Assembly: GCA_964579695.1 (NCBI GenBank)
Contig: CAZOHI010000003.1
Span: forward strand, 11,384-75,383
DNA from: an uncultured Caulobacter sp.
GTDB taxonomy: Bacteria > Pseudomonadota > Alphaproteobacteria > Caulobacterales > Caulobacteraceae
Length of the DNA stretch: 64,000 bases
Reading direction: 5' to 3'
The notes beneath the pieces were generated by a model. The model did no database searches. It saw nothing but the letters and a program-made list of their open reading frames with translations, and had not been told where the DNA came from. Position 1 is the stretch's first letter; each line of letters begins with the position of its first letter. Positions 17,746 to 35,811 of this stretch are shown piece by piece. Both the position numbers and the translations under genes were made by a program.

Positions 17746-17962
17746 ATAGTGGCGGCGTTGCTCAGGAGCAGGGAGGCGTAGGCACCAATCAGCCGTGGAT
17801 TTCCCAAGTCTGAGACGCGCCAGGACCTGACATGAAGTCGCCGGCGAGAGGCGGACCTCCGCGCGGCCGATTGAAGACCGCAGGGCAGGCGCGGGCCCCT
17901 CCCGGTTGCGACTCGACCTTGCGTTGAGGCAAACAGACGAGATTGAGGGGGGCGAAGCAGCC

Positions 17963-19858
17963 ATGGACGCGGACGATCACAAGGTCGAGGTGGTTCTCAA
18001 GGAGGACCGTCGTTTCATGGTGCCCCTTTACCAGCGCAAGTACCAGTGGGCCGAACACCGCCTCCTGCCCTTCTGGGAGGACGTCGCCGCCAAGGCGGCG
18101 GAAGTCCTCAGGGCCGAAAACCGGTTCGACCACTATATGGGCGCCCTGATCCTCGCTCCCGTCGACGTTGGATCGCAGATCGGCAAGACGCCGGTCGTGC
18201 AGGTGGTGGACGGCCAGCAACGGCTGACCACTTTCCAGCTCTTCCTCGCCGCCCTACGGGAGGTCGCCCGCAAGCGCGGCGAGAACGACTTCATCCCGCA
18301 CATCAATGGCTATCTGCACAATCCTCTGAAGAGCAAGGACGTCGATCCGCTCACCCGCTTCAAGCTCACCCCGACCCCCTCCGACCGCGACCTGTTCCAC
18401 GACCTGATGGAACGGCCTTACGACGAAGTCGTCGCGCGCTATCGCCACCTGTTCTGGGGGGCCTCCGTGCCCAAGAACACGCCCTTCCCCGCCTTCCGGG
18501 CCTACATTCTGTTCTTCCGCTGGATCGACGATTTTGCGGCCAACGGCCCAAGCGACGAGGAGTCGCTGGAGGAGCTTGGCGAAGCCGAAGCTGACGCCGG
18601 CGCGGGCGATGACGACCTAGTCGGCGAGCGGCTGGAGGCGCTGCTCAAGGCGTTGCTCGAACGCCTCAAGCTGGTGGTCATCAGCCTGGATGAGAACGAC
18701 GACGCCCAAGTGATTTTCGAGACCCTGAACTCCAAGGGCGAACCGCTGTTAGCCATGGATCTGGTCCGCAACAACATCTTTCACCGGGCCGAGAAACAGG
18801 AAGCTCAGGTGGAGGAACTATACAACGAGCTCTGGGACCCGCTCGACGAAGCGTGGTGGCGTGAAGCCGCGCCCAATGCGCGTCCGATGCGTCCGCGGAT
18901 CGACCATTTTCTCGCCAACACGCTGGCGGCGGAGACCGGCGGCGCGATCTCCATCCGGGAGCTCTACGCCGAGTACCGAAACTTCGCGATTCCGCGAGGA
19001 CGCCCTCGCTTCCCGGACGTCGCCGACGAATTGAAGCTGCTCGCCCGCTACGCCCCCCTCTACGAGACCCTAGAGGGCCGAAAGCAGGTCGATCCCGACC
19101 TGCACTGGTTCGGCCGAAAGATGGCCACGTGGCAGGTGACCACGGTCTATCCGGCGGCGCTGATGGTCGGACATCCGGACGTTCCGAGGGGCGGGCGTCT
19201 GGCGATCCTGCAGCTGCTCTATTCCTACCTGGTGCGACGCAGCCTGTGCGGGCTTACGACGAAGAACCTGAACAACGTCTTCCAGGGCCTAGCCGCACGC
19301 TTCCAGCGCGAGGGCGCCACTCTCGCGGCTTTCAACGACTACTTCGCCGGCCGCACCGGCGACAGCATCCGCTTCCCCGATGATGCGGAGCTGAGAGCCG
19401 GGGTGCTGACCACCAACGCCTACGCCATCTCACCTCAACCCCGTCTCGTCGACATCTTGTGGGAGCTGGAAACGGCGACCCGTTCGGCTCTCGCGGAAAC
19501 CCAGGCCCGACCTCCGGGGCTTTGGGTCGAGCACGTCATGCCGCAGACCTGGACCGAGGGATGGCCCTTCGCCGACGCGGACTACGCCAGGCCCTGGAGC
19601 GGCGAGCCACAGGCGGTTGCCCGCACGGCGGAGGTGAACACTATCGGCAACCTCACATTGCTAAGCGAGAGCCTCAACCGGTCGGCCGGCAACAAGAGCT
19701 TTGCGGAGAAGAGGGAGAAGTTCCAGGAGCACACCGGCCTGTTCCTGACCAAATGGTTCCTGACCCGCGACAGCTGGACGGAGGCGGACATCCGGGAGCG
19801 AGGTGAACACCTCGCCACGCTGGCGATACGGATCTGGCCGCCCCTCGGAGCGATCTGA
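17963..19858 (+). CDS. gmrSD: GmrSD-type modification-dependent (type IV) restriction endonuclease, DUF262 + DUF1524/HNH fusion
   Basis: PLYQRKYQW, VDGQQRLTT, IFETLN; C-terminal EHVMPQ…IGNLTLL…N.SAGNKSF. Confidence 0.9.
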   Translation: MDADDHKVEVVLKEDRRFMVPLYQRKYQWAEHRLLPFWEDVAAKAAEVLRAENRFDHYMGALILAPVDVGSQIGKTPVVQVVDGQQRLTTFQLFLAALREVARKRGENDFIPHINGYLHNPLKSKDVDPLTRFKLTPTPSDRDLFHDLMERPYDEVVARYRHLFWGASVPKNTPFPAFRAYILFFRWIDDFAANGPSDEESLEELGEAEADAGAGDDDLVGERLEALLKALLERLKLVVISLDENDDAQVIFETLNSKGEPLLAMDLVRNNIFHRAEKQEAQVEELYNELWDPLDEAWWREAAPNARPMRPRIDHFLANTLAAETGGAISIRELYAEYRNFAIPRGRPRFPDVADELKLLARYAPLYETLEGRKQVDPDLHWFGRKMATWQVTTVYPAALMVGHPDVPRGGRLAILQLLYSYLVRRSLCGLTTKNLNNVFQGLAARFQREGATLAAFNDYFAGRTGDSIRFPDDAELRAGVLTTNAYAISPQPRLVDILWELETATRSALAETQARPPGLWVEHVMPQTWTEGWPFADADYARPWSGEPQAVARTAEVNTIGNLTLLSESLNRSAGNKSFAEKREKFQEHTGLFLTKWFLTRDSWTEADIRERGEHLATLAIRIWPPLGAI

Positions 19859-20094: not shown

Positions 20095-21045
20095 CTAAGC
20101 CTCCTGTTCCACAGTCAAGTCGTGGAAGGCTTCCCGGATAGACAGCGCGCGGCGGGGCCAGGTGGCCAGCTCTTCATCGATGTCGAGCCGGAGCTTCTTG
20201 AGCAGGAATGTCCCGGGCTTTTGGCGGATCTGATACAGCTTAACCTTTCGGTGGCGAGGCTCCAGCGCCCGCGCCACGGTGTAGGCAGCCGCGGCCGGGC
20301 ACCGCAGGCCGAACACGACCTCCTCGAGCTCAAGGGGCGAATCCTGTAGTCCGCGCTCACCGATCAGCCGCCATTCCCGCTCGTATCGCCAGTCCCCGGC
20401 CTTCTTGAGCAGGACCGCGGCATCGACCTTCTCTGCGGCACCGGCCTCGTTTGCCAGCATCGCGGCGACCAAGCTGGCCTTGACTGTGAGCGTCCCGCCA
20501 TAGCGAACTTTGTTCAGCTTCAGGTCGTCCGGTGCCGAATAGCCAAAGCAAACGCCACGATGCTGGTCGCCGTAGTGACTCCACATCAGCGGACAATTGG
20601 GGCGTTCGGCCAGGGAAACAACGCCGCGGTCGTAGCGGCGCAGTAGTTCGCGCTCGACCTCATGGCCAAGCACCATCTGGAGCGGATCATTCGCCTCGAT
20701 ATCCGGGTGGGTGGACCAGTAACGGGCCTCCTCGATCGCCCGTTCGGCGCTGCGACGGGCCACCCGTGAGATGTGCTCGCTGGCGCGCGCGCCTTTGGTG
20801 CGGAAGTCTCGGGCGGCCGCAGTCATTTCGTCCGTGACACGGCGTTCCACCAGAGTTCGCAGCATCTGCTCCAAGTCCTCAGCCGGCAGATCCGCGTCGA
20901 GGCTTGGCTGGCTATCCAGGGGATCATTGAACGTCGAGGGATCAGCGTAGAACAGCTCGTCCTCGATAAGACTCCTGAGGCTCTGAACGCTGAAGTGCCG
21001 GTACTTGTAGACTCGCGCTGGCGCGATCTTCCTCTTCTTCGCCAT
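20095..21045 (-). CDS. DUF2971 domain protein
   Basis: YKYR, FADPSTFNDPLD, LMWSHYGDQHRGVC, K..DWRYEREWR; start reassigned to ATG 21045. Confidence 0.85.
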   Translation of the reverse strand: MAKKRKIAPARVYKYRHFSVQSLRSLIEDELFYADPSTFNDPLDSQPSLDADLPAEDLEQMLRTLVERRVTDEMTAAARDFRTKGARASEHISRVARRSAERAIEEARYWSTHPDIEANDPLQMVLGHEVERELLRRYDRGVVSLAERPNCPLMWSHYGDQHRGVCFGYSAPDDLKLNKVRYGGTLTVKASLVAAMLANEAGAAEKVDAAVLLKKAGDWRYEREWRLIGERGLQDSPLELEEVVFGLRCPAAAAYTVARALEPRHRKVKLYQIRQKPGTFLLKKLRLDIDEELATWPRRALSIREAFHDLTVEQEA

Positions 21046-21216
21046 CCTCTGCCCCCGCCGCCTGGTCGCGGTCAGGCTAAAGGCGCGCGACTGAAAGGTC
21101 ACGCCGATGCAAGCCGGGTCGTCCAAGCGGCTCTGTTCCAGGTTATGGACGCGTCATGCGCCGGCTGGTGAACCGCTACGAGGAACTGACGCTAAACGCC
21201 CGCTCGGCGCTGGCCC

Positions 21217-21801
21217 TCAGCTGCCTGCGTCGGAAGTTCGAAACCGGGCCGGGATGCTCAGGCACGACCGGGCACGGTCGCCGATGAGACTTACGATGGC
21301 GACGGCATGCCCATCCGGCACTCGCATTCGGGCATCGGTCAACGCTGCGAACACAGCGTCGGCGAGCTCTGCAGAACTGAAAGCGCTACGCAGGTCAGGT
21401 CCCAACAACAGATCGCAGGTGGAGCGGACGTCCAAGGCCGCGAACCGGCGGGCCGCTAGGCTCGTGGCCTTGCGCTCGTCAATGACGGCGCACCCGCCCA
21501 ACCGGGCCGCGCAGGCCAACGTCGCAGCCTCGCCGTCGTCGAGGGTTTCCGACGCAGGCCCAGCCACTAAGGAGAGGAACAGCGCCTCGTCTTCTACCCC
21601 GAGGCGGACGACCTGCATCAGCCCCATATGCAACAGCGCGGCGACCTCGTCCGCAGCCCGCCGCCCCTTTGGACGACCGCGCTCCAGCTCACCCAGCGCG
21701 ACATCCGTGATCGCCAGCGGCCGCGGAAGGGCCTTCAGAATCCGATGGGCCTCGCCGGTGGCGGTCAAGTTGATCCAAACGCTGGCGTCCGCAACCATCA
21801 T
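21217..21801 (-). CDS. PIN-domain protein (putative ribonuclease toxin)
   Basis: VADASVWINL, ELERG, LDDGEAATL, AVIDERKA give the PIN acidic residue pattern. Confidence 0.8.
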   Translation of the reverse strand: MMVADASVWINLTATGEAHRILKALPRPLAITDVALGELERGRPKGRRAADEVAALLHMGLMQVVRLGVEDEALFLSLVAGPASETLDDGEAATLACAARLGGCAVIDERKATSLAARRFAALDVRSTCDLLLGPDLRSAFSSAELADAVFAALTDARMRVPDGHAVAIVSLIGDRARSCLSIPARFRTSDAGS

Positions 21802-21811
21802 CCAGGCTGTC

Positions 21812-22984
21812 TCAACCCATCAACCGCGGAGAGTCTTCACGGCCAACGCCCTCGTCCTCGTAGGCGTCGATCAGTTCGCGCACCTCGACGCGGTCGAGCT
21901 GCAGCAAGCGTGCGATCTGGCCTTCAGAGAGCAGGTCCTTAGCCCAAGCTTCGCCGACCAGTAGCGCCACTCGCATGGACACTGGCCGGGCGGCGTCAGC
22001 GCGCGCGGTGTCCCTACCAGCCGCTTCGCCCAGCACCTGCGCCGCTTGCTGGTCAGTGATCCCGCCAGTATTCTCGAACCAGTCCCAAGTGCCTGACTTG
22101 GTCAGCCCAAGCTCTTCCAGCCGCCGCGCCATCGCCTCACGCGACACGCCAAATGCGTGGGCCAAGAGGATAATGTGCCGGCGGGTCAGCTGGGTAGCGC
22201 CGGCGGTGATCTCCTTGAACATGGCCATTACGGCGCGGGCCGGGGTGAGGAACGCCCGGGCGAAGGCGATGGCGTAACGCTCCTCACGGCTAGTCTCGGG
22301 AGACCCTGCGTGCAGCGCATCCGGTGCCCGACGGGTCGAGGTGAAGTGTCCAAGTTCATGGGCGCAGGTTTGTGCCCGCCGGTCCTTCGGGTGAGCCGCG
22401 TTCAAGAGAATGCAGGCGCCGGCCCGATCGTCGAAGGCGTAGAGCCCCGAGATCTTTGCCGGTAGGCGACGCACAAACACTCGGGCTCCGAGCTGCAGCT
22501 CAAGCACGGACATCATGTCATGGACCGGCGCCATGCCGATCCCGAGCCACTGGCGCAGCTCGATCGCGTCCTGTTCGGCCTGCACGGCCACATTGCCCGG
22601 CAGCAGGGGCCGCTCCGGCGGGTCGTTGCGCACCCGTTGCACCCCCAGAAGGTCCTCCAGTTCCAATTCGGCTTGGACGAGCGTGGTCAGAAGGGCGACG
22701 GCAGCTTCGACATCCACATCAGCCTCGCCCGCCCGTCGGAACCGCGGCTTCAGGTCGATTTGCACGGCCTCACGCCGCAGCAGGCTGTTGACTGACACGG
22801 CGTACAGCGCGGCGAACCTCTGCAGCTCCTCAAGCCGAGGCTTGCGCTGACCTTGCTCGATCGCAACCACGGTTGTCCTAGCGACCTGCAGCGCCGCGGC
22901 GGCAGCAGCTTGGGTGACCCTCGCCGATTCCCGAGCAACCCTTAGCCGGTCGCCGATCTCGACGGCGGTGAGTTCCTCGCTCAT
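21812..22984 (-). CDS. XRE HTH + ImmA/IrrE Zn-metallopeptidase fusion
   Basis: N-terminal HTH (RLRVARESARVTQAAAA…IEQGQR); HELGH zincin motif, EERYAIAFA; start MSEELT at 22984 overlaps the QueC stop. Confidence 0.9.
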   Translation of the reverse strand: MSEELTAVEIGDRLRVARESARVTQAAAAAALQVARTTVVAIEQGQRKPRLEELQRFAALYAVSVNSLLRREAVQIDLKPRFRRAGEADVDVEAAVALLTTLVQAELELEDLLGVQRVRNDPPERPLLPGNVAVQAEQDAIELRQWLGIGMAPVHDMMSVLELQLGARVFVRRLPAKISGLYAFDDRAGACILLNAAHPKDRRAQTCAHELGHFTSTRRAPDALHAGSPETSREERYAIAFARAFLTPARAVMAMFKEITAGATQLTRRHIILLAHAFGVSREAMARRLEELGLTKSGTWDWFENTGGITDQQAAQVLGEAAGRDTARADAARPVSMRVALLVGEAWAKDLLSEGQIARLLQLDRVEVRELIDAYEDEGVGREDSPRLMG

Positions 22985-24357
22985 GGCCTTGCACTGGCAA
23001 GGCGTGCGACGAAGGAGTCCGGTCCCAATGACTTGCGGAACACACGCCACTCGGCGGCATGCCGGCCCAACATTTCACGCAACTGATGCTCCACCACCGC
23101 CGGGTCTCCGTCCAATGCTTCCGCGGTCTCGCGTGCAGCGCGGCGAAGGGACCGCGCGTGTAGCGGCGATTCTGCGAACTCAGCCAAGTGGTCCATGTGC
23201 AGAACTCCGGCCACGGCGTAGGCGCGCAGCTTGGAGGTGAGGCCATTGAATCCCTTGGCCACGCCGTCCTCCAGGCGGTTGGCGGAGAGGTTCTCCCAGA
23301 TGTAGGTTTCGGCCGGCTCGTCGATCCCGGCGGTGAACATGCTCATCCGCCGGAGCATGCAAGCCGCGCAGATGCCGCACTGGCGCCGTCGCCCATTGAC
23401 CGAGCAATGGCGCGACTGTTGCCAACAAGATCGGGTGTCAGTCCAAGTCGGCACAGCCTGGAGCGCTCGCGCGGCGTGCAACGTCTCGCCTTTGGTGCTC
23501 CAGAGCCGCGGATATTCGTAACGGACATCCTTGTCACTAATGGCGTGCAGCAGACGTTCCATGCGCCGCGAGAATGTCGGATGGACGCGGTAGTCGGGAT
23601 AGATCTGCCCGCTGACCGCCAGCATCGGGCCGAACGCACCTTGCCCACTCTCGGTTACCATGATGCGCGAAACTCCGGCCATCAAGGCCGCGATGCCGGT
23701 CACGGCGGCGAACTTGAAGCCGCGCGAGCGGGCCGAGGTCTCGCCTTGCCGTGGGCGCTTGAGCTTGTACGGGACGACGGCGAAGGGGACGCGCTTCTTC
23801 TTGCTGCGGGGTCGATCGACCCCGCCGACGCCCAGACGCACGGCCACAAGGCCGCCAGCACCTTCGTCGGCGGCGACCAGGGCACGAACAGCGCGGGAAT
23901 CCAGGCCATCGCTGTAGGGCATGATTACCCGCGCGCCGGACTCGAGGCTAAGGCTACCCTGGGCGACCCGCGGGACGTCCCGCCGCCGCTGCGCAAAGCT
24001 GAAGACCCAGACGTCGCCGGTCAGATAGCCTAAGGCCTCCTCCAGCGCCGCGCGCACGTTCGGACGGTTCCAGAGCACCGGGTCATGGACGGCGATCCGC
24101 ACATCGAACCGCCGGCTCCAGCTGTATTCCGGTCGGCGCCGGGTGACATCGCAGAACTCGGCCGCCGCTGCGATAACCAGCAAGTCGACCAGCGCCGGGT
24201 TCCAGTCAGCAAAGAAATAGGATTCCAGACCTTGAGTATCGAGCTGCAGCACCTCGCCGATCGTTGCGTAGATCGCGCCGTCGCGCATCACCGCGCCTGG
24301 TTCTAGGGCATCGAGGGTCAGGCTCGGCATTTCGATGTTCAGACTAATGGCGTTCAT
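22981..24357 (-). CDS. QueC-like (QatC-like) PP-loop ATPase with an N-terminal extension domain
   Basis: PP-loop variant PYSDGLDS; SRGFKF; Zn-site SCW…CGICAACMLRR; N-terminal DLLVIAAA…WSRRFDVRIAV.DP..W…LGYLTGD.W.F as in QatC-type proteins. Confidence 0.85.
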   Translation of the reverse strand: MNAISLNIEMPSLTLDALEPGAVMRDGAIYATIGEVLQLDTQGLESYFFADWNPALVDLLVIAAAAEFCDVTRRRPEYSWSRRFDVRIAVHDPVLWNRPNVRAALEEALGYLTGDVWVFSFAQRRRDVPRVAQGSLSLESGARVIMPYSDGLDSRAVRALVAADEGAGGLVAVRLGVGGVDRPRSKKKRVPFAVVPYKLKRPRQGETSARSRGFKFAAVTGIAALMAGVSRIMVTESGQGAFGPMLAVSGQIYPDYRVHPTFSRRMERLLHAISDKDVRYEYPRLWSTKGETLHAARALQAVPTWTDTRSCWQQSRHCSVNGRRRQCGICAACMLRRMSMFTAGIDEPAETYIWENLSANRLEDGVAKGFNGLTSKLRAYAVAGVLHMDHLAEFAESPLHARSLRRAARETAEALDGDPAVVEHQLREMLGRHAAEWRVFRKSLGPDSFVARLASARP

Positions 24358-24917
24358 AGCGGCGGCCCCTCGTCCAACCCAGAGCGATTGACCTTCAGCG
24401 CCAGGCGGCGGACGCCCTCACCGGCAGCGATCCCGGCCGCCAGTCGATCGGTGCCGATGCTGGGGATGGCGCTGTGCAGCTTAGTCCGAAGCCGGCCGGC
24501 ATCCGGCGAGCCTTCGCCCAGGTAGTGCTCCTCCATCTGCCGTGACCGGTGCAGGGCGCGCTCATCGAGGGTCGCCTTGATGGCCGCCTCATAGGCGGCC
24601 GGCCCAACCTGACCGTCACGGGCGACGTCGCGGGCCTGCGCCGCGAACAGGGCTTCCACCGGATTCTGTGCCAAAACCTGCAAGCGCCGGGTTTCGGCCG
24701 CGGCCACTTCAGGAAACAGGTTGCCGCGGTTGTCGTCGCCGAGCGCTGCGCGGATCTCCTTGGCGAACGCAGGCCGGATCGCTCCCCATTCGTCGAGCAG
24801 CGCGGGCTGAAACGCCTCCGCCGTTTCGACCACCGAGTGCGCGAGGTTCGCGGCGATCTTGGCCAGCGCCTTCCAGGGCCGGCTCATCTTCATGGTCTTG
24901 TACGGTCCGTCGCTCAT
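24354..24917 (-). CDS. Hypothetical protein, first gene of the QueC operon
   Basis: 187 aa starting MSDGPYK; GGAGG RBS upstream; ATGA overlap with the QueC-like gene. Confidence 0.75.
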   Translation of the reverse strand: MSDGPYKTMKMSRPWKALAKIAANLAHSVVETAEAFQPALLDEWGAIRPAFAKEIRAALGDDNRGNLFPEVAAAETRRLQVLAQNPVEALFAAQARDVARDGQVGPAAYEAAIKATLDERALHRSRQMEEHYLGEGSPDAGRLRTKLHSAIPSIGTDRLAAGIAAGEGVRRLALKVNRSGLDEGPPL

Positions 24918-25318
24918 GGGGGCCCGCCTCCGATGTCGGAACGCTGGCCGAGTCGGTTGGAAATGTCAAATTGGTGTCGTGTGGATGCTGACAATGTCAG
25001 GCACCTTGGCGCTTGCGTTCAGCGCCTATCGAGGCGGCGCAAGCATGTCATCCGATGCCGTTCGCCCCGAGCGCTCACCGCCCCAGATCACATCCTAGGG
25101 CTGTTCGGCAGCTTGAGGTCGGTTAAGCTTGGGCATGGACGCCGCTACAAACTTCACCGAGGACAGACACATGGAGGCAGAGGCGAGTGACGAACTCCCG
25201 CGGCTCCCCTTGGTGATCTTCGAGCACCCAGCCCGGGAAGATTATGACCCACGTGCCTTAGAACGTGGTGCGGGCAGTGGGGCCGTAGTGTGCTTGCGCT
25301 CGACACAGGTCAGGCTCG

Positions 25319-27841
25319 TTGGCTGAAGCTCTACTACCGCAAGATATCATTGACGGCGCCGCCGTTCGCGATCGGCCGAACCTATTCGTGATCGGTTGCT
25401 ACGACCGACGCATCACCTTTTACTCGCAGCAAGTGAGGGCGCTCTCGCTTATTCATGCCCTCAAGGACCTCGGTTACCTCAATGCCGCTCCGCGCATCGC
25501 GGTAGTCGGAGGCGGAGCGGCAGGGATCACGGCCGCGGCGGCGGCGGCGCTTGTGTCGAATTGCAGGGTGACGCTGTTCGAGACGGCAAGTGAGCTGCTG
25601 TCGCTGCAATCGACCACCGCACGGCGACGCCTCGACCCACACATCTACGACTGGCCCGCGCACGACACGACCGACCCGATCGCAGATCTGCCAATCCTAG
25701 ATTGGGAATCGGGGACATGTCTGTCGGTGCGCGACGATGTCCTGCTCGGGTTCGAGCACATCGCCCTTCGCCTCGCGCCGCGACTGCAGAAACGCACGAG
25801 GCATAAGGTCACCGGCCTTGCCGTGGCAGCCGATGGGTACGACGTTGGCTTCGTCAATCTAGATGCGCCGCTGCCGGATCCCGGGCAGGAGCCGACCGAG
25901 CGGTTCAACATCGTATTGTTGGCAGTCGGCTTCGGCCTCGAGCCGGAGGAACCGGTGCAGAATATTCAGAGCGCAAGCTATTGGTCCGACGCTGGCGTGC
26001 CCGTTGCCGAATTCCAAGGCCGCCCGACGCCGCGGTTCTTTATCAGCGGCGCCGGGGATGGGGGTTTGATCGACCTTGTGGCGGCCGGTGCGAATGACTT
26101 CGACCATGCCAGCATGATCTCCATGATTTCGCAGCATCCCGGAGTCGCCGAACTCTCGGCACGACTCGTGGCGATCGATGTCGAGGCCCGTGCCGCCGAC
26201 GCTGCCGGCGCGCGGTTCGACTTCATGTCCGCCTACGACGCGCAACTGCTCGACCCGCTGACCGCCATCGGATTGCTCGCGGCCGTCGCCCAGCAACTGC
26301 GCCCCGGCGTGCAGCTGACCTTGCAGACGCAGCACGCCGAGCTGTTTGAGGTGTCCACCTCGATGCTTAATCGCCTGGCTGCCTATCTGACCATCAAGGC
26401 GTGCGAAGGCGACGCGCAGAGATCGTTCCGGCATCTCCAATGCGGCACAGTTGCGCGGGTCGATGCACCCGACTCTGCGCCCGAAAGCCCCGCTGCGTTC
26501 TGGCTCGACTGTGGTGGTGAAACGGTCGCGGCTGATGCGGTAATTGTTCGTCGTGGGCCCTTGCGCGCGGTCGTCCGGGTACCGTTTGGCGATCATCTGG
26601 CAGATTACGAGGATACGCATAAGGACTGGCTCGCCCGTCACGGCGACGCTACGCTGGTTCCCAAGTTGTCAGGGCACGCGCGGACCCTGTTCCAGGAGGC
26701 GGCGCGCAATGCCGATATCCCGCTCGCGCCGCGCTGGCAGCGGCTCGCTGCGCAGCAATTGCCGGTTTCGGTTCAGATTCGCCGTCATGCCGACCACGTG
26801 CGGTGGTCAGGCGCGATGGCGGCGGACCAACTCGTCAGAGCTTGGAGCGAAGACCAAGCGTTCGACATTATCCTGCCCGACGCACCGGGCGATCTGGGGG
26901 CCGCCGCCGGCGCTATCCTGCGCGTCGCATGTCATAGCCGCGTCGGCCGCCTGCACGCCTCACCGGCCTTGTGGACGCAGCATGTGCGTGCCCTCAGTCT
27001 CGACTCACTGCACGCCGAGGGCATGGCGATGCCGAAGATCGTCGGCGGAAATCCGGGGGGGGCCGCGCAACACCCCGAGGAGGTGGCGGCTGATATCCTC
27101 GCCAGGCGAATCCATCGCTCGCTCGACGCTTGGTTGCTGGGCCGGCTCAACGCGCATCTCCAGCCCTTTTTCGCTAGCAACGCAGATCCCGGCCGCCACA
27201 TTGGGCTGACGGTCGGAAATGACCTGCGCGTTGCGATGGCTGCGACCTGGGCCAACTGGCGAGCATCGTTCGCCGACGATCCCGCGCTGCTCAATCATTT
27301 CCTGAGATTGATGATCTGCGCAGTCGATGATGAAGACAGTCGCGACGCTGCGCAGGTATTGGTCGGACCGACCAAGTGGAAGGAAATCGTCCGGGGCACG
27401 GCCGTCGCGCTGGCGATTGCGGCGGCTTGGCAGACGACTTCGCAGACGACTTCGCCCAAGGGGGCGGGTCCAGGCAATCTCGTTCGCGAGCGCGACGGGG
27501 ACAGCGCCTGGGCTGGTCACGGGTGCGCGGCGGATCTGATCAACGGCAGCGATATGTCGTTGTGTGCCGCTTCCTATATGTGGCGGACCCAATTTGTCAT
27601 CCTCATCGTCAAGGGCACGATCGAGGTCGCACGTTTCGCCGAAAAGGCCTTTGCGCAGATCGAATCCGATCAACCCGCGCTCAGCGAGACCGACGGCGGC
27701 GGCCCGGTGATCATGTCTATCAGCCGCGAGTTTTCAGATGCGGTTGCGGCTGGTTTGACAGAGCTGCGCGCCTTGTTGGCGGCCGTCGAGGCCCGGCATT
27801 TCGAGGTCTTGGACAAAGCAATCGTGAAGGGCGCGGCATGA
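25319..27841 (+). CDS. lmuA: Lamassu/ABC-three-component effector with an FAD/NAD(P)-dependent oxidoreductase (FMO-like) domain
   Basis: Rossmann motifs VVGGGAAG, VLLAVGFG and ISGAGDGGL; first of three translationally coupled genes ending in an SMC-like ATPase. TTG start is uncertain. Confidence 0.78.
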   Translation: MAEALLPQDIIDGAAVRDRPNLFVIGCYDRRITFYSQQVRALSLIHALKDLGYLNAAPRIAVVGGGAAGITAAAAAALVSNCRVTLFETASELLSLQSTTARRRLDPHIYDWPAHDTTDPIADLPILDWESGTCLSVRDDVLLGFEHIALRLAPRLQKRTRHKVTGLAVAADGYDVGFVNLDAPLPDPGQEPTERFNIVLLAVGFGLEPEEPVQNIQSASYWSDAGVPVAEFQGRPTPRFFISGAGDGGLIDLVAAGANDFDHASMISMISQHPGVAELSARLVAIDVEARAADAAGARFDFMSAYDAQLLDPLTAIGLLAAVAQQLRPGVQLTLQTQHAELFEVSTSMLNRLAAYLTIKACEGDAQRSFRHLQCGTVARVDAPDSAPESPAAFWLDCGGETVAADAVIVRRGPLRAVVRVPFGDHLADYEDTHKDWLARHGDATLVPKLSGHARTLFQEAARNADIPLAPRWQRLAAQQLPVSVQIRRHADHVRWSGAMAADQLVRAWSEDQAFDIILPDAPGDLGAAAGAILRVACHSRVGRLHASPALWTQHVRALSLDSLHAEGMAMPKIVGGNPGGAAQHPEEVAADILARRIHRSLDAWLLGRLNAHLQPFFASNADPGRHIGLTVGNDLRVAMAATWANWRASFADDPALLNHFLRLMICAVDDEDSRDAAQVLVGPTKWKEIVRGTAVALAIAAAWQTTSQTTSPKGAGPGNLVRERDGDSAWAGHGCAADLINGSDMSLCAASYMWRTQFVILIVKGTIEVARFAEKAFAQIESDQPALSETDGGGPVIMSISREFSDAVAAGLTELRALLAAVEARHFEVLDKAIVKGAA

Positions 27842-28533
27842 CCGATGGTTCGACCCTGTCATTTGGCCTGGCTGACTTTGCCGAGCGCCTGCGCAAGGCC
27901 GCGGGTGTCCTCGACCTCACCGTGGAGGAGCGTCCGGAACTGGCGAGTTCGACGTTCAACGGTGGCTCAAGCAAATCCACGTCATTAAGTCCGAGCGACC
28001 TTCCGGCTGAATGCCATGCCATTCGCATTGATCGGTTCAACATCGTGCTCAGCGTGCTTCCCGAGATCGCAACGCTCGAGGCGGTGCGCGAGACCTTGCG
28101 GCGTTGCCGCAACCAGTGCGTCGTCGCGCGCTCCTATCTTGGCACCAATGAAACACTTGACCTGCAGCTGATGCTGTTGGGGCCGCGCGCGAGTGAGCGT
28201 CAGGAAGCCTGGCGCGCGTTGGCTCTGATGGTCGAGCGAGACGATCGAGTGGCGCGCAAGCTGGCCTGGCTGCGCCCCGAGGACAAGCAGCGGGATGAGG
28301 AAAGCTTCGCCGACTTCCTCAAGCGGACGTTCCTCGCCCGACCGTGGATTCACGACGAGGGCAAATTCGAAGACGCGGCCCTCGATGAACTGAGCGGCAG
28401 CGGCGCGCCGAAGTCCGGATTGCCGCGAACACTGGCGGACGATTGGGAGCGGACAGCGCTCGACGAGAAGAAATCACCGGATGATATTGTCACGGCGCTG
28501 GTAAAGGCCTGGGAACGAAGAGGCCAAGCATGA
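27838..28533 (+). CDS. lmuC: Lamassu/ABC-3C middle component
   Basis: 231 aa between effector and ATPase, ATGA overlaps on both sides; ERDDRVARKLAW motif typical of ABC-3C middle components. Confidence 0.7.
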   Translation: MTDGSTLSFGLADFAERLRKAAGVLDLTVEERPELASSTFNGGSSKSTSLSPSDLPAECHAIRIDRFNIVLSVLPEIATLEAVRETLRRCRNQCVVARSYLGTNETLDLQLMLLGPRASERQEAWRALALMVERDDRVARKLAWLRPEDKQRDEESFADFLKRTFLARPWIHDEGKFEDAALDELSGSGAPKSGLPRTLADDWERTALDEKKSPDDIVTALVKAWERRGQA

Positions 28534-31500
28534 GCGAGATCTTCCTTTCCCGCATCGTGATCCACGATTTCCGTACCTTCGGTGACTTCGACATCGAGGT
28601 GCCGGCAACGCCAGGGCTCGTACTCCTCACCGGAACCAATGGCCTCGGCAAAAGCAGCTTCTTCGACGCGATCGAATGGGGTCTCACGAACAAAATCCGC
28701 CGCTTCGAGCCCTATCTTCAAAAGGGCAAGAAGAAGATCGTCGAAAAGGACTATCTTACGCGTCGCGGGGCGGAGCCGGACTCGCACCATGTGTCCCTTA
28801 CCTTCTCCGGGCATGGTCCGATCGAGCGCGGCGCCGGCAGCGGTACGCCGATGGCAGACATCATTGCGCAGCTTGCGCGCCCAGATCGCCGCACGATCAA
28901 CGACCTCGGCACCTATCTCGCCCTCACCCATTTTCTCGGTCAGGCGGCCCAACAGCGGTTCACGAGCCGTGATCCGCGGGACCAATGGCAGGCGCTCAAA
29001 GGGCCGAGCGGCATCGATCGGCTCGAGCGAGTTCGCGCAGGGCTTCGCGGCCGCCCGACGGTGACGGCATTCACCCGGCGCATCGAGCAGCAGCAGGCGA
29101 GCGTAGCGACGCTCGAGCGTCAGATCGCCGATTGGCAGGGGTGGGTGGCGCGACTCGAACGGTTGCGCTCCGCCGCTCGCGCGACCGGCGTTCTGACTAC
29201 CGCTGAGGTCTCGGAACGCATTGACGAGCTCGAAACCGACCTGCTGCAGCTGACATCGGGTCAGCCTCTCGCCATTGTCGGCGAGGATGTTGGACGGCGT
29301 CTCGCAGCGGTCGGCGATCGGATCGGCGATGCGCTGCGGTCGACGGGCGAGCGCAAGACCGCATTGGAGGCCTTGATGGCGCTGGCCGGACAATTTGCGA
29401 TCAGCCAGGCGGACAGCCGCCTCGACACTCCCCATCTCGTCAGATTGCGAAGCGAAGTGAGCGATGCTCACGCGCGGCTCAATCGTGCGTCGCCCCTCGT
29501 GAGTTCGGCGCACGATGCCGTCGCAGCGCAGCAGGCTGCCATTGCCACGATCGATCAGAACATCGCGCTCCTTGAAGCGGGTCTGACCGACCTCGCTCGC
29601 CGAGCGCAGTTGGCCGGACTGATCGCCGCCGACGAGGCGGACCGCAGCACGTTGGTCGAAGCAATAGCCGCCCACCGTGCCGCGCTTGAGACTGCGGACG
29701 GTGCCATCGCAGCGCATGGCGATGCGGCCGCTGAGGTGGCACGCCTGCGGAGCCTTGCCAGTTCCGCTAAGGCACTGGAAGAATCGCTGACCCATCATCT
29801 CGAGCTCGAAGCTCAGGCCGGGGCCGCCACGGCCGCGCTCGCTCAGGGTCGCGAGGTCGCCGAACGAGCAGCAGCGGAACTGGCACCACTCGCAAGCCAA
29901 CTGGCGGACATCGACCGCCGCATCTCGGACGCCGAGCATCAACGCGCGGAAGCCGATCGCCACGCGACAGCCATCAGCGCCGGTCTTTCGCAGCTGGCAA
30001 GCCATCTACACGAAGACGACACTGAGTGCCCGGTGTGCAGCACGTCATTCGAGCCTGGCGTGCTCAAAGCACTCGCCGAGGCCGCGGCTGCAGGCAGCGA
30101 CGCCCGGCTGGCCCAGGCCGATGAGGCCCTCGAGGGACTGAGGACTGCGCGCGTCGATCTGGCTGGCAGAACTGCCAACCTTAGATCGCAAGTCGCGGCG
30201 GTCGAGGAGCTCGAACGAGCGGCCACCGCAGCTACCCGCGCGGCGACCGATGCCCGCGCAGCGATCGCCCGAACGCTGGATGCGAGCGCCGATGGTGATC
30301 TCACAGGCCTCGCGGCAACGCGCAGGCGCGACGCTGACACCGCGCTTGCAAAGGCGGAGGCGACGCTCACTACGCTGGCTGCGAACGCAGCTGCCGCGAC
30401 CGAGCAGCGTTCGTCGGCGGCCAACGACCTTGATGATCTGATCGGACGCGAGAGCCACCTCGGCACGCGTCTGGCGCAGTTTCAGGCTGAGGACACCGCG
30501 TGCGCGGACCGGATCTCTGCTCGCAACTTGTCGAATGCCACGATCACCGACCTCGAGAGCCGGCTAACCTCGGCGCGCGGGCAGAGCGAGGCGGCTCGAG
30601 CCCGCTTGGTGGAACTTACCGATGCGGCGAACGCCGCGGGCGCTGCGGCGCAAAGCGAGCAAGCGGCGGTTGAGGCGGCGCAGCGCGAGCTAGCAGTGGC
30701 GGAACTGAACCGCGCCAATGCGGAGCAGGCGGCGCGTCAGACCCAGCTCCGTTGGACCGAGGCGGGGTTGCCGGACAGCCCGAGCCAGGCGGCCTATGAT
30801 CGGGCTATTGCGGCACTCGACGCGACGCTCGTCGGGTTGCGGTCGATGGCCGAGCGGCAGCTGGTTCTTGCCCGTGATAATGAGGATGCGCTCCTGCAAA
30901 CCGAGATGGACGACATTACTGCATCGATGCATCTTGCCGCTGGCGATGAGGGCATCGGCGATCCGGTCGTCTATCTCGCAACACTAGAGGCGAAGCTCGA
31001 CGCTGCGAAGGCGGCGGTTAAGCTCACTACGGCCACACGTAACGCGGTCAAACGTTATTCGGAAGATCTGCAAGCGCAGGCCGACGACTTTTCCAGCCGC
31101 GTGCTCGATCCGCTCAACACGGTGATCGACGACTTCAACGAGGCGATGCTGAGCACGCCAGGCGAGAGCATTCAGTTTAAGGCCGATACCCGGGTCGACG
31201 CCACGACCTTCGGCATGGCGCTGCGCTATCGCGATAAGGTCGAGGACGCCATCGAGAGCAGGAAGGATTTGCCGCCACAGGTGGTGTTGAGTGAGGGCCA
31301 GCTCGCCGCCAATGGTTTCAGCATCCTTTGTGCAGCCAGCACAGCCTATCCCTGGTCACGCTGGCGCGCGTTGCTGCTCGATGATCCGCTGCAGCACAAT
31401 GACATCATCCACACTGCCGCCTTTGTCGACGTGATGCGCAATATGGTGGAGCTGAACGGCTACCAGCTACTCATGTCGAGTCATGATCGTGGCGAAAGCG

Positions 31501-31664
31501 ACTTTATCGCGCGCAAGTTCGACGCGGCCGGCCTTCCGTGCACCACGGTTCTCCTCACTGCGCCGTCAGATAAGGGTGTTGTTTGGGTGGCGCCCGATCA
31601 TAACCAAGCGGCGGCGCGCGCTTTGCGTGGTGGCAACGGGAGTTCGAGCGCCAGCCACGCATGA
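28530..31664 (+). CDS. lmuB: Rad50/SbcC-like SMC ABC ATPase of Lamassu
   Basis: Walker A GTNGLGKS, long coiled coils, central CPVC zinc hook (about aa 500 of 1044), LSEGQ signature, LLLDDP, SSHD. Confidence 0.88.
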   Translation: MSEIFLSRIVIHDFRTFGDFDIEVPATPGLVLLTGTNGLGKSSFFDAIEWGLTNKIRRFEPYLQKGKKKIVEKDYLTRRGAEPDSHHVSLTFSGHGPIERGAGSGTPMADIIAQLARPDRRTINDLGTYLALTHFLGQAAQQRFTSRDPRDQWQALKGPSGIDRLERVRAGLRGRPTVTAFTRRIEQQQASVATLERQIADWQGWVARLERLRSAARATGVLTTAEVSERIDELETDLLQLTSGQPLAIVGEDVGRRLAAVGDRIGDALRSTGERKTALEALMALAGQFAISQADSRLDTPHLVRLRSEVSDAHARLNRASPLVSSAHDAVAAQQAAIATIDQNIALLEAGLTDLARRAQLAGLIAADEADRSTLVEAIAAHRAALETADGAIAAHGDAAAEVARLRSLASSAKALEESLTHHLELEAQAGAATAALAQGREVAERAAAELAPLASQLADIDRRISDAEHQRAEADRHATAISAGLSQLASHLHEDDTECPVCSTSFEPGVLKALAEAAAAGSDARLAQADEALEGLRTARVDLAGRTANLRSQVAAVEELERAATAATRAATDARAAIARTLDASADGDLTGLAATRRRDADTALAKAEATLTTLAANAAAATEQRSSAANDLDDLIGRESHLGTRLAQFQAEDTACADRISARNLSNATITDLESRLTSARGQSEAARARLVELTDAANAAGAAAQSEQAAVEAAQRELAVAELNRANAEQAARQTQLRWTEAGLPDSPSQAAYDRAIAALDATLVGLRSMAERQLVLARDNEDALLQTEMDDITASMHLAAGDEGIGDPVVYLATLEAKLDAAKAAVKLTTATRNAVKRYSEDLQAQADDFSSRVLDPLNTVIDDFNEAMLSTPGESIQFKADTRVDATTFGMALRYRDKVEDAIESRKDLPPQVVLSEGQLAANGFSILCAASTAYPWSRWRALLLDDPLQHNDIIHTAAFVDVMRNMVELNGYQLLMSSHDRGESDFIARKFDAAGLPCTTVLLTAPSDKGVVWVAPDHNQAAARALRGGNGSSSASHA

Positions 31665-31979
31665 AGACCTAGAGGCACTGCAAACAGTTGACGACAACGC
31701 TCACGGTCTAAGGGCGTCTCGCGAACGCTCGTTTCGAGTCACTGACCCTCGCAGGAGTTCGACCCGCTCAGGATTCAACGCGTCGCCTTGCTGCGGACCT
31801 TCCCAATGTCTCTATTGAGTCAGGTCCGGCCGAAGGTCACGGCAGCGCTGCTTGGAAAGCAGACATTCTGTCTGTAACCGTATGGAGCCTCAGGAATTCG
31901 CCGCTGCACGAGGGCGAGATCGGGTCGGCCCCTTCTGACCGAGACTGACCGGAACGGCCTTCGGACAGCCCCTTTTAGA

Positions 31980-32010
31980 AAGGCGGGCGGCGAGCCTTCG
32001 CCCGCCGCCC
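31980..32010 (-). terminator. Probable intrinsic terminator
   Basis: 8-bp stem GGCGGGCG (31982-89) / CGCCCGCC (31999-32006), followed on the minus strand by TTTCT. Confidence 0.55.
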
Positions 32011-35800: not shown

Positions 35801-35811
35801 GTGCCCCCCCC

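What the first reader, a model, noticed from the sequence alone, without database searches (positions are those of the whole stretch)
21217..24917. Four-gene operon hypothetical - QatC-like QueC - XRE/ImmA - PIN: candidate new deazaguanine-dependent defence system
Seen: four co-oriented genes, with two 4-nt overlaps and a 10-nt gap. Established: QueC-like enzymes in QatABCD (QatC) and type IV CBASS (Cap9) conjugate a 7-deazaguanine to the N-terminal Gly of a partner protein. Here there is no KAP NTPase (QatA), TatD (QatD), CD-NTase or TGT. Instead there is a peptidase-regulator and a PIN toxin, and the partner begins M-S-D-G-P, exposing Ser rather than Gly after Met removal. The PP-loop is also variant (SDGLDS). 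Inference: the 187-aa protein is the QatB-analogous substrate, possibly with a different conjugation chemistry, and its modification state gates the ImmA/PIN output.
Basis: partly seen in the sequence, partly recalled or inferred. Interest (0 to 1): 0.75.

Follow-up and report, generated by a model that had tools for sequence, protein, structure and literature searches.

The report
Qat-like enzyme pair wired to PIN toxin
This is a real four-gene cassette, conserved across several bacterial phyla and not described in the papers I searched, that joins a QatC-type protein-modifying enzyme and a new small partner protein to a repressor-protease and a PIN nuclease; it is most likely an unnamed anti-phage system, and about 40% of its host genomes cannot make the deazaguanine compound it was assumed to need.

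Summary
Four genes lie on the minus strand at 21217-24917, with two ATGA overlaps and one 10-nt gap. A is a 187-aa protein that matches no family model. B is a QatC-like PP-loop enzyme. C is an XRE-HTH/M78 peptidase resembling the Rosmer antitoxin RmrA. D is a PIN nuclease.

I saw the same A-B-C-D order in about 70 loci from Alpha- and Betaproteobacteria, Acidobacteriota and other phyla, and in annotated conjugative plasmids. No alternative partner genes were seen. In 401 sampled genomes, B and D homologues occur only together. The cassette often sits next to known defence genes, and a palindromic operator lies at a fixed position upstream of A.

A is not a detectable QatB homologue. Its N-terminus M-[S/T]-D-G-P is nearly invariant in 139 of 147 clusters, which fits a role as B's substrate. 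Unlike QatC, B keeps the QueC-type Y-x-D motif, and its PP-loop is always S-[D/E/N]-G-x-D-S.

One new caveat: 24 of 57 host genomes lack QueC, and 22 of those also lack QueE. "Deazaguanine-dependent" is therefore unproven.

Verdict: an undescribed variant that combines a QatBC-like core with a Rosmer-like protease/PIN output. The mechanism is inferred, not shown.

The parts
24989..24999 (.). Perfect palindrome TGACAATGTCA, the probable operator for the XRE domain of C. It is the distal copy in this window.
   Evidence: It is the only exact match in the 64-kb window. TGACANTGTCA with at most 1 mismatch lies within 150 nt upstream of A in 73 of 78 related loci, and 64 of 74 sites fall at -50 to -41. 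The background rate is 0.003 per 150 nt.
24963..24969 (-). TTGACAT, a degenerate proximal half-operator that also reads as a -35-like hexamer, about 46-52 nt upstream of the A start codon.
   Evidence: Read. In most relatives the full palindrome overlaps TTGACA at this position. The consensus promoter scan found no complete sigma-70 match in this window.
24927..24937 (-). Conserved GACAT element followed by the Shine-Dalgarno sequence GGAGG of gene A.
   Evidence: GACAT-N(0-3)-GGAG is conserved immediately upstream of A in loci where A is only 27% identical to the window's copy.
24354..24917 (-). Gene A: 187-aa all-alpha partner protein. It has an invariant N-terminus M-S-D-G-P, an RQxEEH motif, and a disordered C-terminal tail carrying G-L-D-E-G.
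   Evidence: No family hit. A profile search found 893 clusters at 50% identity with E<=1e-3. 139 of 147 representatives begin M-[S/T]-D-G-P. Codons at the N-terminus vary synonymously. AF2 gives pLDDT 89.2 and ten helices. No match with E<=0.001 in the PDB or viral structure libraries. hhalign against QatB gives probability 0.7%.
22981..24357 (-). Gene B: 458-aa QatC-family PP-loop ATP pyrophosphatase with a Zn ribbon. The PP-loop is S149-D-G-L-D-S154, and Y253-P-D255-Y-R-V-H-P matches the QueC YPDCR motif.
   Evidence: PADLOC QatC 5.6e-27; NCBIfam QatC 105.6 bits against a cut-off of 280; PDB QatC chains 9vlk and 9zee at 5.6e-14 and 4.3e-12. Motif statistics for 49 further members are.
21812..22984 (-). 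Gene C: 390-aa fusion of an XRE helix-turn-helix, an M78 (ImmA/IrrE) zinc peptidase (H209-E-L-G-H213, then EERYA) and a conserved C-terminal domain. It resembles RmrA.
   Evidence: Pfam HTH_31, HTH_3 and Peptidase_M78. PADLOC RmrA models up to 5.6e-25, one covering residues 12-373; capP 2.7e-13. NCBIfam spr1629-family repressor/antitoxin 6.6e-13, below its cut-off. HExxH and EERYA are conserved across homologues. C is the most conserved of the four proteins, at 53-92% identity.
21217..21801 (-). Gene D: 194-aa PIN-like nuclease, made of a PIN domain of about 135 aa and a helical C-terminal extension. It is the probable toxin or effector.
   Evidence: AF2 pLDDT 95.4. The 50 best Foldseek PDB matches are overwhelmingly VapC and other PIN-domain proteins (probability 0.98-1.00, TM-score on the target mostly 0.5-0.7 for the single-domain PIN proteins). 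D5, E38, D89, E91 and D108 are invariant in 38 homologues. Homologues carry Pfam DUF3368. The best PADLOC hit is PDC-S70 at 1.5e-6, and no RmrT model matches.

Best explanation
The four genes form one self-repressed, horizontally mobile operon that most likely works as an anti-phage or conflict system built from two modules.

Module 1 (A and B) is analogous to the QatB-QatC core. B is a QatC-lineage PP-loop enzyme. It would use ATP to adenylate a carboxylate donor and transfer it to the N-terminus of A. After methionine removal, that N-terminus is the invariant Ser/Thr-Asp-Gly-Pro. The donor may be 7-carboxy-7-deazaguanine (CDG), because B keeps the QueC/Cap9-type Y-x-D signature. This is uncertain, because about 40% of host genomes cannot make CDG.

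Module 2 (C and D) resembles a Rosmer-type toxin-antitoxin pair. C represses the operon through the TGACANTGTCA operator upstream of A and keeps the PIN nuclease D in check. On infection, a change in the A-B module would trigger the M78 peptidase of C, either against itself or against A's conserved tail. That would free D to degrade nucleic acid and abort the infection.

Shown by the sequences: the gene order, the co-occurrence, the conserved motifs, the operator, the folds of A and D, and the defence-island and plasmid context.

Inferred only: that B modifies A, what the donor is, that C neutralises D, and what the trigger is.
For: 1. Single unit.
- A-B-C-D appears in the same order in 20 of 20 loci found through A or B homologues, with A identity as low as 27%.
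- It also appears in 41 of the 43 loci from a DNA-pattern scan for MSDGPHRSL that had at least 3.9 kb of downstream sequence, and in 8 shorter loci. Truncated loci always fit the same order.
- In 401 evenly sampled Alphaproteobacteria, B occurs in 6 genomes. D occurs in the same 6, plus once at a contig edge.
- The coding sequences overlap.
- The operator sits at a fixed position in 73 of 78 loci.

2. Defence context.
- In the window the cassette lies between GmrSD, DUF2971/PDC-S31 and Lamassu, on an island next to tRNA-Thr and an integrase.
- Four of 10 flanking genes sampled from other loci are clear defence genes: a type IIG restriction-modification enzyme, a type I methyltransferase, PD-T4-6 and DRT8. 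A fifth is an SMC/AAA ATPase with weak matches to defence ATPase models.
- Plasmid copies lie next to Lit, DUF3800, Shedu and AbiEii genes.
- B homologues lie on 25 plasmids, 14 of them conjugative.

3. B is of the QatC lineage.
- HMM and PDB hits support this.
- It shares the QatC motifs DxWxxxF, RSRGFKF, ESGQG, HP, PxxxxTKG and CGxCxxCxxRR (motif list from PMC13329287).

4. A as substrate.
- It occupies the QatB position.
- M-[S/T]-D-G-P is kept in 139 of 147 clusters despite synonymous codon change.
- In QatBC and Cap9-CdnD, the partner's N-terminus enters the active site (PMC13279940, PMC13376578, PMC13639016, bioRxiv 2025.04.06.647259).

5. C and D.
- C matches RmrA over almost its full length and has an intact HExxH.
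- D is a PIN fold with invariant acidic residues.
- ImmA-type antitoxins are already known to pair with PIN-like toxins (PMC10440598).
- In locus L117, A and B are deleted but C and D are intact, as expected if C-D is an addictive pair.
Against: - No experiment exists, and I could not model any complex, so every functional link between the four proteins is inference.
- A has no detectable homology to QatB. Its N-terminal segment is short (about 12 residues) and modelled with fairly high confidence, unlike QatB's long disordered tail. The disordered, conserved element in A is the C-terminal tail.
- A G2D change inactivates QatB and CdnD, yet here residue 2 is Ser/Thr and residue 3 is Asp, so the active site must differ.
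- 24 of 57 cassette-bearing genomes lack QueC, and 22 of those lack QueE. B's motifs are equally conserved in hosts with and without QueC. This argues against host-made CDG as an obligatory donor.
- One plasmid variant begins M-R-D-G-I, from which the methionine would not be removed, and its B lacks the Tyr.
- C is the most conserved protein in the cassette, which is unusual for an antitoxin.
- In some ICEs the cassette sits inside an imuB-dnaE2 mutagenesis operon. That would also fit a DNA-damage-responsive, non-defence role.
Confidence: 0.55

Rival explanations
1. Two independent systems that merely travel together: a minimal QatBC-like defence pair (A-B), sufficient on its own as QatBC is, and next to it a self-standing Rosmer-like toxin-antitoxin pair (C-D). 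The two would share no signalling.
For: QatB and QatC alone protect against lambda-vir (PMC13279940). RmrA-type antitoxins paired with assorted toxins, including PIN-like ones, are autonomous defence or TA modules (PMC10440598). Locus L117 keeps an intact C-D after A-B was deleted.
Against: No A-B pair without C-D, and no intact C-D of this family without A-B other than the one deletion derivative, was seen in about 70 loci. D homologues are confined to B-bearing genomes in 401 sampled genomes. B and C overlap by 4 nt, and the only conserved operator lies upstream of A. C's HTH would therefore control all four genes.
Confidence: 0.15
2. The cassette is not primarily anti-phage. It would be a stabilisation or addiction and stress-response module of plasmids and ICEs, with the XRE-ImmA protein responding to DNA damage as ImmR/ImmA, DdrO/IrrE and CapH/CapP do, and the A-B pair tuning that response.
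For: Homologues lie on 25 plasmids, 14 of them conjugative, and in ICE-like regions with ArdC, TraG and TraI genes. In three loci the cassette is embedded between imuB and dnaE2, next to an SRAP gene. M78/XRE pairs are classic DNA-damage switches (PMC12828697; PMC10440598 on ImmA).
Against: The cassette is repeatedly adjacent to bona fide defence genes in unrelated genomes. Its nearest characterised relatives, Qat and Rosmer, are defence systems. Mobile-element carriage is also typical of defence systems.
Confidence: 0.15
3. B does not acylate A's alpha-amine with a nucleobase. Instead it acts on the invariant Asp3-Gly4, for example by adenylating the Asp side chain as asparagine-synthetase-type PP-loop enzymes do. 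Alternatively, the peptidase C first cuts at D|G to expose Gly4, which then becomes a canonical N-terminal-glycine substrate.
For: Asp-Gly is the only part of the N-terminal motif kept in the outlier M-R-D-G-I variant, whose Met cannot be removed. A D-[DE]-G-[PV] motif also recurs in A's C-terminal tail. A peptidase is always encoded in the operon. 39% of hosts lack a CDG pathway.
Against: B keeps the QueC-like Y-x-D-[YF]-R signature and the QatC architecture. This is most simply read as a small-molecule carboxylate pocket plus an N-terminal amine acceptor. M78 peptidases are known to cut C-terminal regions of repressors, not N-terminal tripeptides (PMC12828697). Ser/Thr at position 2 is itself nearly invariant, which a discarded propeptide would not require.
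Confidence: 0.1
4. B is a housekeeping or paralogous 7-cyano-7-deazaguanine synthase (QueC), as genome annotation pipelines label it, and the gene neighbourhood has no functional meaning.
For: PGAP annotates plasmid homologues as "7-cyano-7-deazaguanine synthase". B gives a weak Pfam QueC hit at 3.2e-8.
Against: B scores 30 bits against a cut-off of 150 for TIGR00364 and lacks the QueC YxQxHxxE and VPxRN motifs (PMC13329287). The genome has its own canonical queC-queE-queD operon. Many hosts lack QueE, so QueC would have no substrate. Experimentally, QatC does not complement a queC deletion (PMC13329287).
Confidence: 0.02

Closest known systems
QatABCD anti-phage system, specifically its minimal QatB-QatC core (Gao et al. 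2020; PMC13279940, PMC13376578, PMC13639016)
   Same: B is of the QatC lineage. It has the same N-terminal extension, Rossmann core and Zn ribbon, and shares the motifs DxWxxxF, RxRxxxF, ExG, HP, PxxxxTK and CGxCxxCxxRR. A small all-alpha partner with no known homologues is encoded immediately upstream, and that partner has a strongly conserved extreme N-terminus. The system has four genes and lies in defence islands.
   Different: There is no QatA (KAP NTPase) and no QatD (TatD). The partner is unrelated in sequence to QatB: 187 aa rather than about 250-300, N-terminus M-S-D-G-P rather than M-G-T-S, and a short rather than a long disordered N-tail. The PP-loop is S-[DEN]-G-x-D-S rather than SGGxDS. 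The QueC-type Y-x-D is retained where QatC has T-x-T. B's C-terminal extension differs from QatC's. The output genes are an XRE-M78 peptidase and a PIN nuclease.
Rosmer (RmrT/RmrA) and related ImmA-antitoxin TA/defence pairs (Millman et al. 2022; PMC10440598)
   Same: C matches RmrA models over almost its full length (HTH plus M78 peptidase). It is followed by a putative toxin. Pairing of ImmA-type antitoxins with PIN-like toxins is documented.
   Different: D matches no RmrT model. The pair is never found alone, apart from one deletion derivative, and is always fused into an operon behind the A-B module. The operator lies upstream of A, not upstream of C.
Type IV CBASS Cap9-CdnD deazaguanylation (bioRxiv 2025.04.06.647259)
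   Same: A QueC-family enzyme would act on the N-terminus of a partner protein. B keeps the Tyr/Asp pair that binds the deazaguanine in Cap9 and QueC.
   Different: Cap9 is a minimal QueC of about 185 aa, whereas B is 458 aa with QatC-type extensions. There is no CD-NTase, Cap10 (TGT) or Cap11. The acceptor residue would be Ser/Thr rather than Gly.
CapH/CapP and ImmR/ImmA, DdrO/IrrE repressor-protease switches
   Same: An XRE HTH and an M78 peptidase control the expression of a defence or mobile-element operon. C gives a PADLOC capP hit at 2.7e-13.
   Different: Here the HTH and the peptidase are fused in one protein with an extra conserved C-terminal domain, and that protein is followed by a dedicated nuclease.

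Membership tests
QatABCD | A QatC enzyme that meets the curated QatC model | tested here: not met
   NCBIfam NF041925 QatC scores 105.6 bits against a cut-off of 280. The PADLOC QatC HMM does hit at 5.6e-27. B is therefore of the QatC lineage but is not an equivalog.
QatABCD | A QatB partner with a conserved MGTS N-terminus | tested here: not met
   hhalign of the A family against four bona fide QatB sequences gives probability 0.7%. A begins M-[S/T]-D-G-P.
QatABCD | QatA KAP-family NTPase and QatD TatD nuclease in the operon | tested here: not met
   The cassette contains only A, B, C and D in the window and in about 70 related loci. The bona fide Qat loci fetched for comparison have a large ORF upstream of QatB and a roughly 245-aa ORF downstream of QatC, in the qatA and qatD positions.
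QatABCD | Strict SGGxDS PP-loop, and T-x-T replacing the QueC Y-x-D | tested here: not met
   The B family has S-[DEN]-G-[LM]-D-S in 47 of 49 further members, with one S-A-G-L-D-S and one without a match; SGG never occurs. Y-x-D-[YF]-R is present in about 41 of the 46 with a motif match. The register relative to QatC T278/T280 rests on sequence alignment only.
Rosmer (RmrTA) | An RmrA antitoxin made of an HTH and a Zn peptidase | tested here: met
   Sixteen PADLOC RmrA models hit C, the best at 5.6e-25, and one covers residues 12-373. HExxH is intact.
Rosmer (RmrTA) | A recognised RmrT toxin in a two-gene architecture | tested here: not met
   D hits no RmrT model even at E<=10; it hits only PDC-S70. 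The architecture is always four genes.
Type IV CBASS | Cap9 (minimal QueC) with a CD-NTase, Cap10 (TGT) and Cap11 | tested here: not met
   The cassette and its flanks contain no CD-NTase or TGT domains. B is 458 aa with QatC-type extensions.
PIN-domain (VapC-like) nucleases | A PIN fold with conserved acidic active-site residues | tested here: met
   AF2 pLDDT is 95.4. The 50 best PDB matches are overwhelmingly VapC and other PIN-domain proteins. D5, E38, D89, E91 and D108 are invariant in 38 homologues. Nuclease activity itself cannot be tested with these tools.
Canonical QueC (preQ0 synthase) | Meets TIGR00364 and has the YxQxHxxE and VPxRN catalytic motifs | tested here: not met
   B scores 30.2 bits against a cut-off of 150.3, and those motifs are absent from the alignment. 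The genome's true QueC lies elsewhere, on contig C11.
Protein N-terminal deazaguanylation (functional class) | An NDG adduct on the partner's N-terminus that depends on CDG supply | not testable with these tools
   This needs mass spectrometry. Indirect test: only 33 of 57 host genomes have QueC, and 22 of the 24 QueC-less genomes also lack QueE. Host CDG therefore cannot be a universal requirement.

The most novel reading that the evidence does not exclude
B is a sensor-ligase, and the modification of A is itself the infection signal. In the roughly 40% of hosts with no queuosine de novo pathway, the donor carboxylate would appear only during infection. One example is 7-carboxy-7-deazaguanine made by phages that put 7-deazaguanines into their DNA. 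B, which keeps the QueC-type Y-x-D pocket, would then ligate the donor to the Ser/Thr N-terminus of A. The tagged A would switch the XRE-peptidase C and release the PIN nuclease D. This would be a defence system that detects a phage's anti-restriction metabolism through a protein-nucleobase conjugation.
Probability: 0.12. Interest if true: 0.9.

Novelty: new variant of a known kind. Interest (0 to 1): 0.7.

Why it matters
What QueC-family enzymes do in immunity is a current open question. For QatC, three structural studies could not agree on the first substrate, and nobody knows what the modified partner does next.

This cassette is a natural variant that may be easier to study, for three reasons:
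- The enzyme still carries the QueC/Cap9 deazaguanine-binding signature.
- The partner has an extremely conserved and distinct acceptor motif (Ser/Thr-Asp-Gly-Pro).
- The downstream output is explicit: a repressor-protease and a PIN nuclease.

The cassette is also widespread. The partner family has at least 893 clusters at 50% identity, across several phyla and on conjugative plasmids. Annotation pipelines label the enzyme "7-cyano-7-deazaguanine synthase", an annotation the evidence here contradicts.

The finding that about 40% of hosts lack QueC and QueE gives a sharp test. Either the donor is not CDG, or it comes from outside the host's own metabolism.

Tried and rejected
- **A in genome contigs by peptide patterns:** nothing found. 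A DNA pattern for MSDGPHRSL worked instead.
- **A against QatB:** the profile-profile comparison showed no homology.
- **A profile against PDB sequences:** only chance hits.
- **A model against PDB and viral structures:** no match with E<=0.001. The PDB fold library stops at 8 April 2026 and may not contain the QatB structures, so structural similarity to QatB is untested.
- **D profile against PDB sequences:** no hit. The fold search was needed to confirm the PIN domain.
- **att repeat bounding the tRNA-Thr island:** none found.
- **Sigma-70 consensus promoter scan of the region:** 0 hits.
- **Correlation between host QueC status and B's motif variants:** none.
- **Literature:** the QueC-family survey (PMC13329287, including its supplement) does not mention an M78 or PIN neighbourhood. 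Searches for QueC-like with ImmA/PIN terms returned nothing relevant.
- **Complex modelling (A+B, C+D):** not possible with the single-chain predictor.

Full report
**1. Observation**

The four ORFs exist as described, all on the minus strand.
- A is 24354-24917, 187 aa. It starts MSDGPYKTMKMS and has GGAGG 9 nt upstream.
- B is 22981-24357, 458 aa.
- C is 21812-22984, 390 aa counted from the ATG at 22984.
- D is 21217-21801, 194 aa.

A/B and B/C each overlap by ATGA, and C and D are 10 nt apart.

The family searches gave these results.
- A matches nothing in Pfam, NCBIfam or PADLOC, even at E<=10.
- B matches Pfam QueC (3.2e-8), PADLOC QatC (5.6e-27) and NCBIfam QatC (105.6 bits, cut-off 280).
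- C has HTH_31/HTH_3 and Peptidase_M78 domains and hits 16 PADLOC RmrA models (best 5.6e-25) as well as capP.
- D matches Pfam PIN only weakly (8.6e-4).

**2. Context in the window**

The cassette lies in a defence island.
- GmrSD is at 17906-19858.
- A DUF2971/PDC-S31 gene is at 20095-21126.
- A complete Lamassu/ABC-3C system (LmuA, MComp1, LmuB) is at 25319-31664.
- tRNA-Thr (5496-5571) is followed by a tyrosine integrase (5730-7097), which marks the left side of the island.

**3. The four genes are one conserved unit**

- A has 68 word-index homologues of nearly constant length, 164-202 aa and mostly 187-191.
- Every context I looked up had the same four genes in the same order, although the flanking genes differed. 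This held even where A was only 27% identical to the window's copy.
- A DNA-pattern scan for MSDGPHRSL across one genome per species gave 115 stretches, of which 80 loci were returned. They come from Alpha- and Betaproteobacteria, Acidobacteriota, Verrucomicrobiales and Binatia.
- Of the 43 loci with at least 3.9 kb of downstream sequence, 41 hold the full A-B-C-D set. The other two are decayed remnants of A. Eight shorter loci are also complete, and all truncated loci fit the same order.
- In locus L117, A and B are deleted while C and D remain intact.
- In an even sample of 401 Alphaproteobacteria, B occurs in 6 genomes. D occurs in the same 6, plus once at a contig edge.
- B homologues lie on 25 plasmids, 14 of them conjugative, and on none of 50,697 phage records. 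Four plasmid copies I inspected through their annotation carry the same four genes.

**4. Regulation**

A palindrome, TGACANTGTCA, overlaps a TTGACA hexamer upstream of A.
- With at most one mismatch it lies within 150 nt upstream of A in 73 of 78 loci.
- 64 of the 74 sites fall at -50 to -41.
- The background rate is 0.003 per 150 nt.

The window has an exact copy at 24989-24999, the only exact copy in the 64 kb, and a degenerate proximal copy. No other intergenic space exists inside the operon. The XRE domain of C therefore most plausibly autoregulates all four genes from this site. This is inference.

**5. Protein A**

- A profile search of 1.84 billion representative proteins finds 893 clusters with E<=1e-3 and 643 with E<=1e-10.
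- Of 147 representatives, 139 begin M-[S137/T2]-D-G-P. The rest are mostly truncated or mis-started gene calls.
- L9, W15, an RQxEEH motif, and a G-[LIV]-[DE]-[DE]-G motif 3-4 residues from the C-terminus are also conserved.
- The N-terminal codons vary synonymously, so selection acts on the peptide rather than on the DNA.
- AF2 predicts a ten-helix all-alpha protein (pLDDT 89.2). The N-terminal segment is short and the C-terminal tail is disordered.
- There is no match with E<=0.001 in the PDB or in viral models, and no profile similarity to QatB (probability 0.7%).

A is thus a new family that occupies the QatB position.

**6. Protein B**

I aligned B with bona fide QatC sequences fetched from four genomes and with the genome's own QueC.
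- B shares the QatC-specific N-terminal domain and the motifs DxWxxxF, RSRGFKF, ESGQG, HP, PxxxxTKG and CGxCxxCxxRR.
- B differs in two family-wide ways, seen in 49 further members.
  - The PP-loop is S-[D/E/N]-G-[M/L]-D-S in 47 of 49 (one has S-A-G-L-D-S and one gave no match). SGG never occurs.
  - B keeps Y-x-D-[Y/F]-R-x-H-P, which matches the QueC motif Y-P-D-C-R. QatC has S-T-R-T-T-H-P at this place.

In QueC and Cap9 this Tyr/Asp pair binds the deazaguanine. Its replacement by Thr/Thr in QatC is the reason two groups doubt that QatC uses CDG (PMC13279940, PMC13639016). My assignment rests on sequence alignment only, and the loop register relative to QatC is uncertain by two residues.

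**7. Proteins C and D**

- C has an intact HExxH (H209-H213) and a downstream EERYA. It also has a conserved C-terminal domain of about 90 aa. It is the most conserved of the four proteins.
- D's AF2 model (pLDDT 95.4) matches overwhelmingly VapC and other PIN-domain proteins among its 50 best PDB hits (probability 0.98-1.00). Its acidic residues D5, E38, D89, E91 and D108 are invariant in 38 homologues.
- ImmA-type antitoxins, meaning RmrA of Rosmer, are known to pair with diverse toxins, including PIN-like ones (PMC10440598).

**8. Defence association elsewhere**

- I sampled 10 large flanking genes from 10 loci. Four are clear defence genes: a type IIG restriction-modification enzyme, a type I methyltransferase, a PD-T4-6 kinase and DRT8. 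A fifth is an SMC/AAA ATPase with weak matches to defence ATPase models. One is a conjugative TraI.
- Plasmid copies lie next to Lit, DUF3800, Shedu and AbiEii genes.
- In some ICE-like loci the cassette sits between imuB and dnaE2.

**9. Is it deazaguanine-dependent?**

The window's genome has a canonical queC-queE-queD operon, so CDG is available in this organism. Across cassette-bearing genomes the picture is different.
- Only 33 of 57 have canonical QueC.
- 22 of the 24 QueC-less genomes also lack a QueE homologue.
- The baseline for QueC in Alphaproteobacteria is 66 of 201.
- B's motifs are conserved equally in hosts with and without QueC.

Host-made CDG therefore cannot be a general requirement. 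The donor is either something else or comes from outside the host's own metabolism.

**10. State of the literature**

- Cap9-catalysed N-terminal deazaguanylation is demonstrated (bioRxiv 2025.04.06.647259).
- For QatC, the QatB N-terminus lies in the active site and is essential. Two groups found no activity with CDG. One group detected an NDG-modified peptide by LC-MS/MS only, not by intact-protein MS (PMC13279940, PMC13376578, PMC13639016).
- The QueC-family survey reports that only about 34% of its QatC cluster lies next to qatA and qatD. It does not describe an M78 or PIN context (PMC13329287).
- I found no paper that describes this cassette.

**11. Mechanism proposed**

I commit to a two-module model. 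B uses ATP to activate a carboxylate donor and transfers it to the Ser/Thr N-terminus of A, by analogy with QatBC. C represses the operon and restrains D, and the state of A-B controls C's peptidase and hence D. Confidence in the whole statement is about 0.55. My rough confidence in each part is:

| Claim | Confidence |
|---|---|
| The cassette is a defence or conflict system | 0.75 |
| B modifies A | 0.55 |
| The donor is a 7-deazaguanine | 0.3 |
| C-D behaves as an antitoxin/toxin pair | 0.65 |

**12. Variants and oddities**

- Divergent plasmid copies begin M-T-D-G-P-F-R-N.
- A Roseomonas plasmid copy begins M-R-D-G-I-W, and its B lacks the Tyr (EAPDLR). In that copy only Asp-Gly is kept.
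- A's C-terminal tail carries a similar D-[DE]-G-[PV] motif. This motivates the rival idea that Asp-Gly is the recognised or reactive element.

**13. Relation to earlier notes of this scan**

Notes on at least nine other genomes describe the same cassette and reach the same general reading. They are not independent evidence. I re-derived the co-occurrence, operator and family assignments here. I added the Y-x-D/PP-loop analysis, the test of B-D exclusivity, the A-B deletion derivative, and the test of the host queuosine pathway.

Complexes could not be modelled.

Noticed in passing
window 25319-31664 (+): This is a complete Lamassu/ABC-3C system divergent from the cassette. LmuA (840 aa) matches a PADLOC LmuA model end to end and carries an N-terminal NAD(P)/FAD-binding Rossmann domain as its apparent effector. 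It is followed by MComp1 and a 1044-aa LmuB.
   Followed up: partly
window 17906-19858 (+) and 20095-21126 (-): A GmrSD-type type IV restriction enzyme and a DUF2971 protein (PADLOC candidate PDC-S31, 5e-42) lie directly downstream of the cassette.
   Followed up: partly
window 5496-7097: tRNA-Thr (TGT anticodon) is followed by a tyrosine integrase, which is probably the left end of the genomic island that carries the defence genes. An IS-type rve transposase lies at 10505-11365. I found no att direct repeat.
   Followed up: partly
window 31978-32150 and 32886-33059: Two adjacent blocks of 68 and 95 nt are repeated 908-909 nt apart at 82-90% identity, near the right end of the island and next to an autotransporter gene (32966-35983, minus strand). 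Their meaning is unknown.
   Followed up: no
L117:5283-7257: A deletion derivative: the first 10 codons of A are joined to the last codons of B, while C and D are intact. This is what one expects if C-D is an addictive toxin-antitoxin pair.
   Followed up: partly
L001/L002:3629-12897: In ICE-like regions the cassette is inserted, in the opposite orientation, between imuB and dnaE2 of an SOS mutagenesis operon, with SRAP, DUF3800 and ArdC genes nearby. A third place, for which no DNA was available, has the same layout.
   Followed up: no
L169:3911-5865 (Roseomonas mucosa plasmid): An outlier copy: A begins (GTG)M-R-D-G-I-W-K-G-L-P-L, and its B has E-A-P-D-L-R in place of Y-x-D-Y-R. The partner's N-terminus and the enzyme pocket appear to have changed together. 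A Shedu nuclease is the next gene.
   Followed up: partly
L003:10757-14038 and L005:10821-14180: In two divergent metagenomic lineages a DEAD/ResIII helicase of about 1100 aa directly follows D on the same strand. It may be a fifth gene in those variants.
   Followed up: no
plasmid records, e.g. L168:4483-5862: The NCBI annotation pipeline labels the B homologues "7-cyano-7-deazaguanine synthase". The evidence here, and the published failure of QatC to complement a queC deletion, contradict that label.
   Followed up: yes
sample of 201 Alphaproteobacteria genomes: Only about a third (66 of 201) of the sampled alphaproteobacterial genomes encode a canonical QueC. De novo queuosine synthesis is therefore a minority trait in this class.
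   Followed up: no
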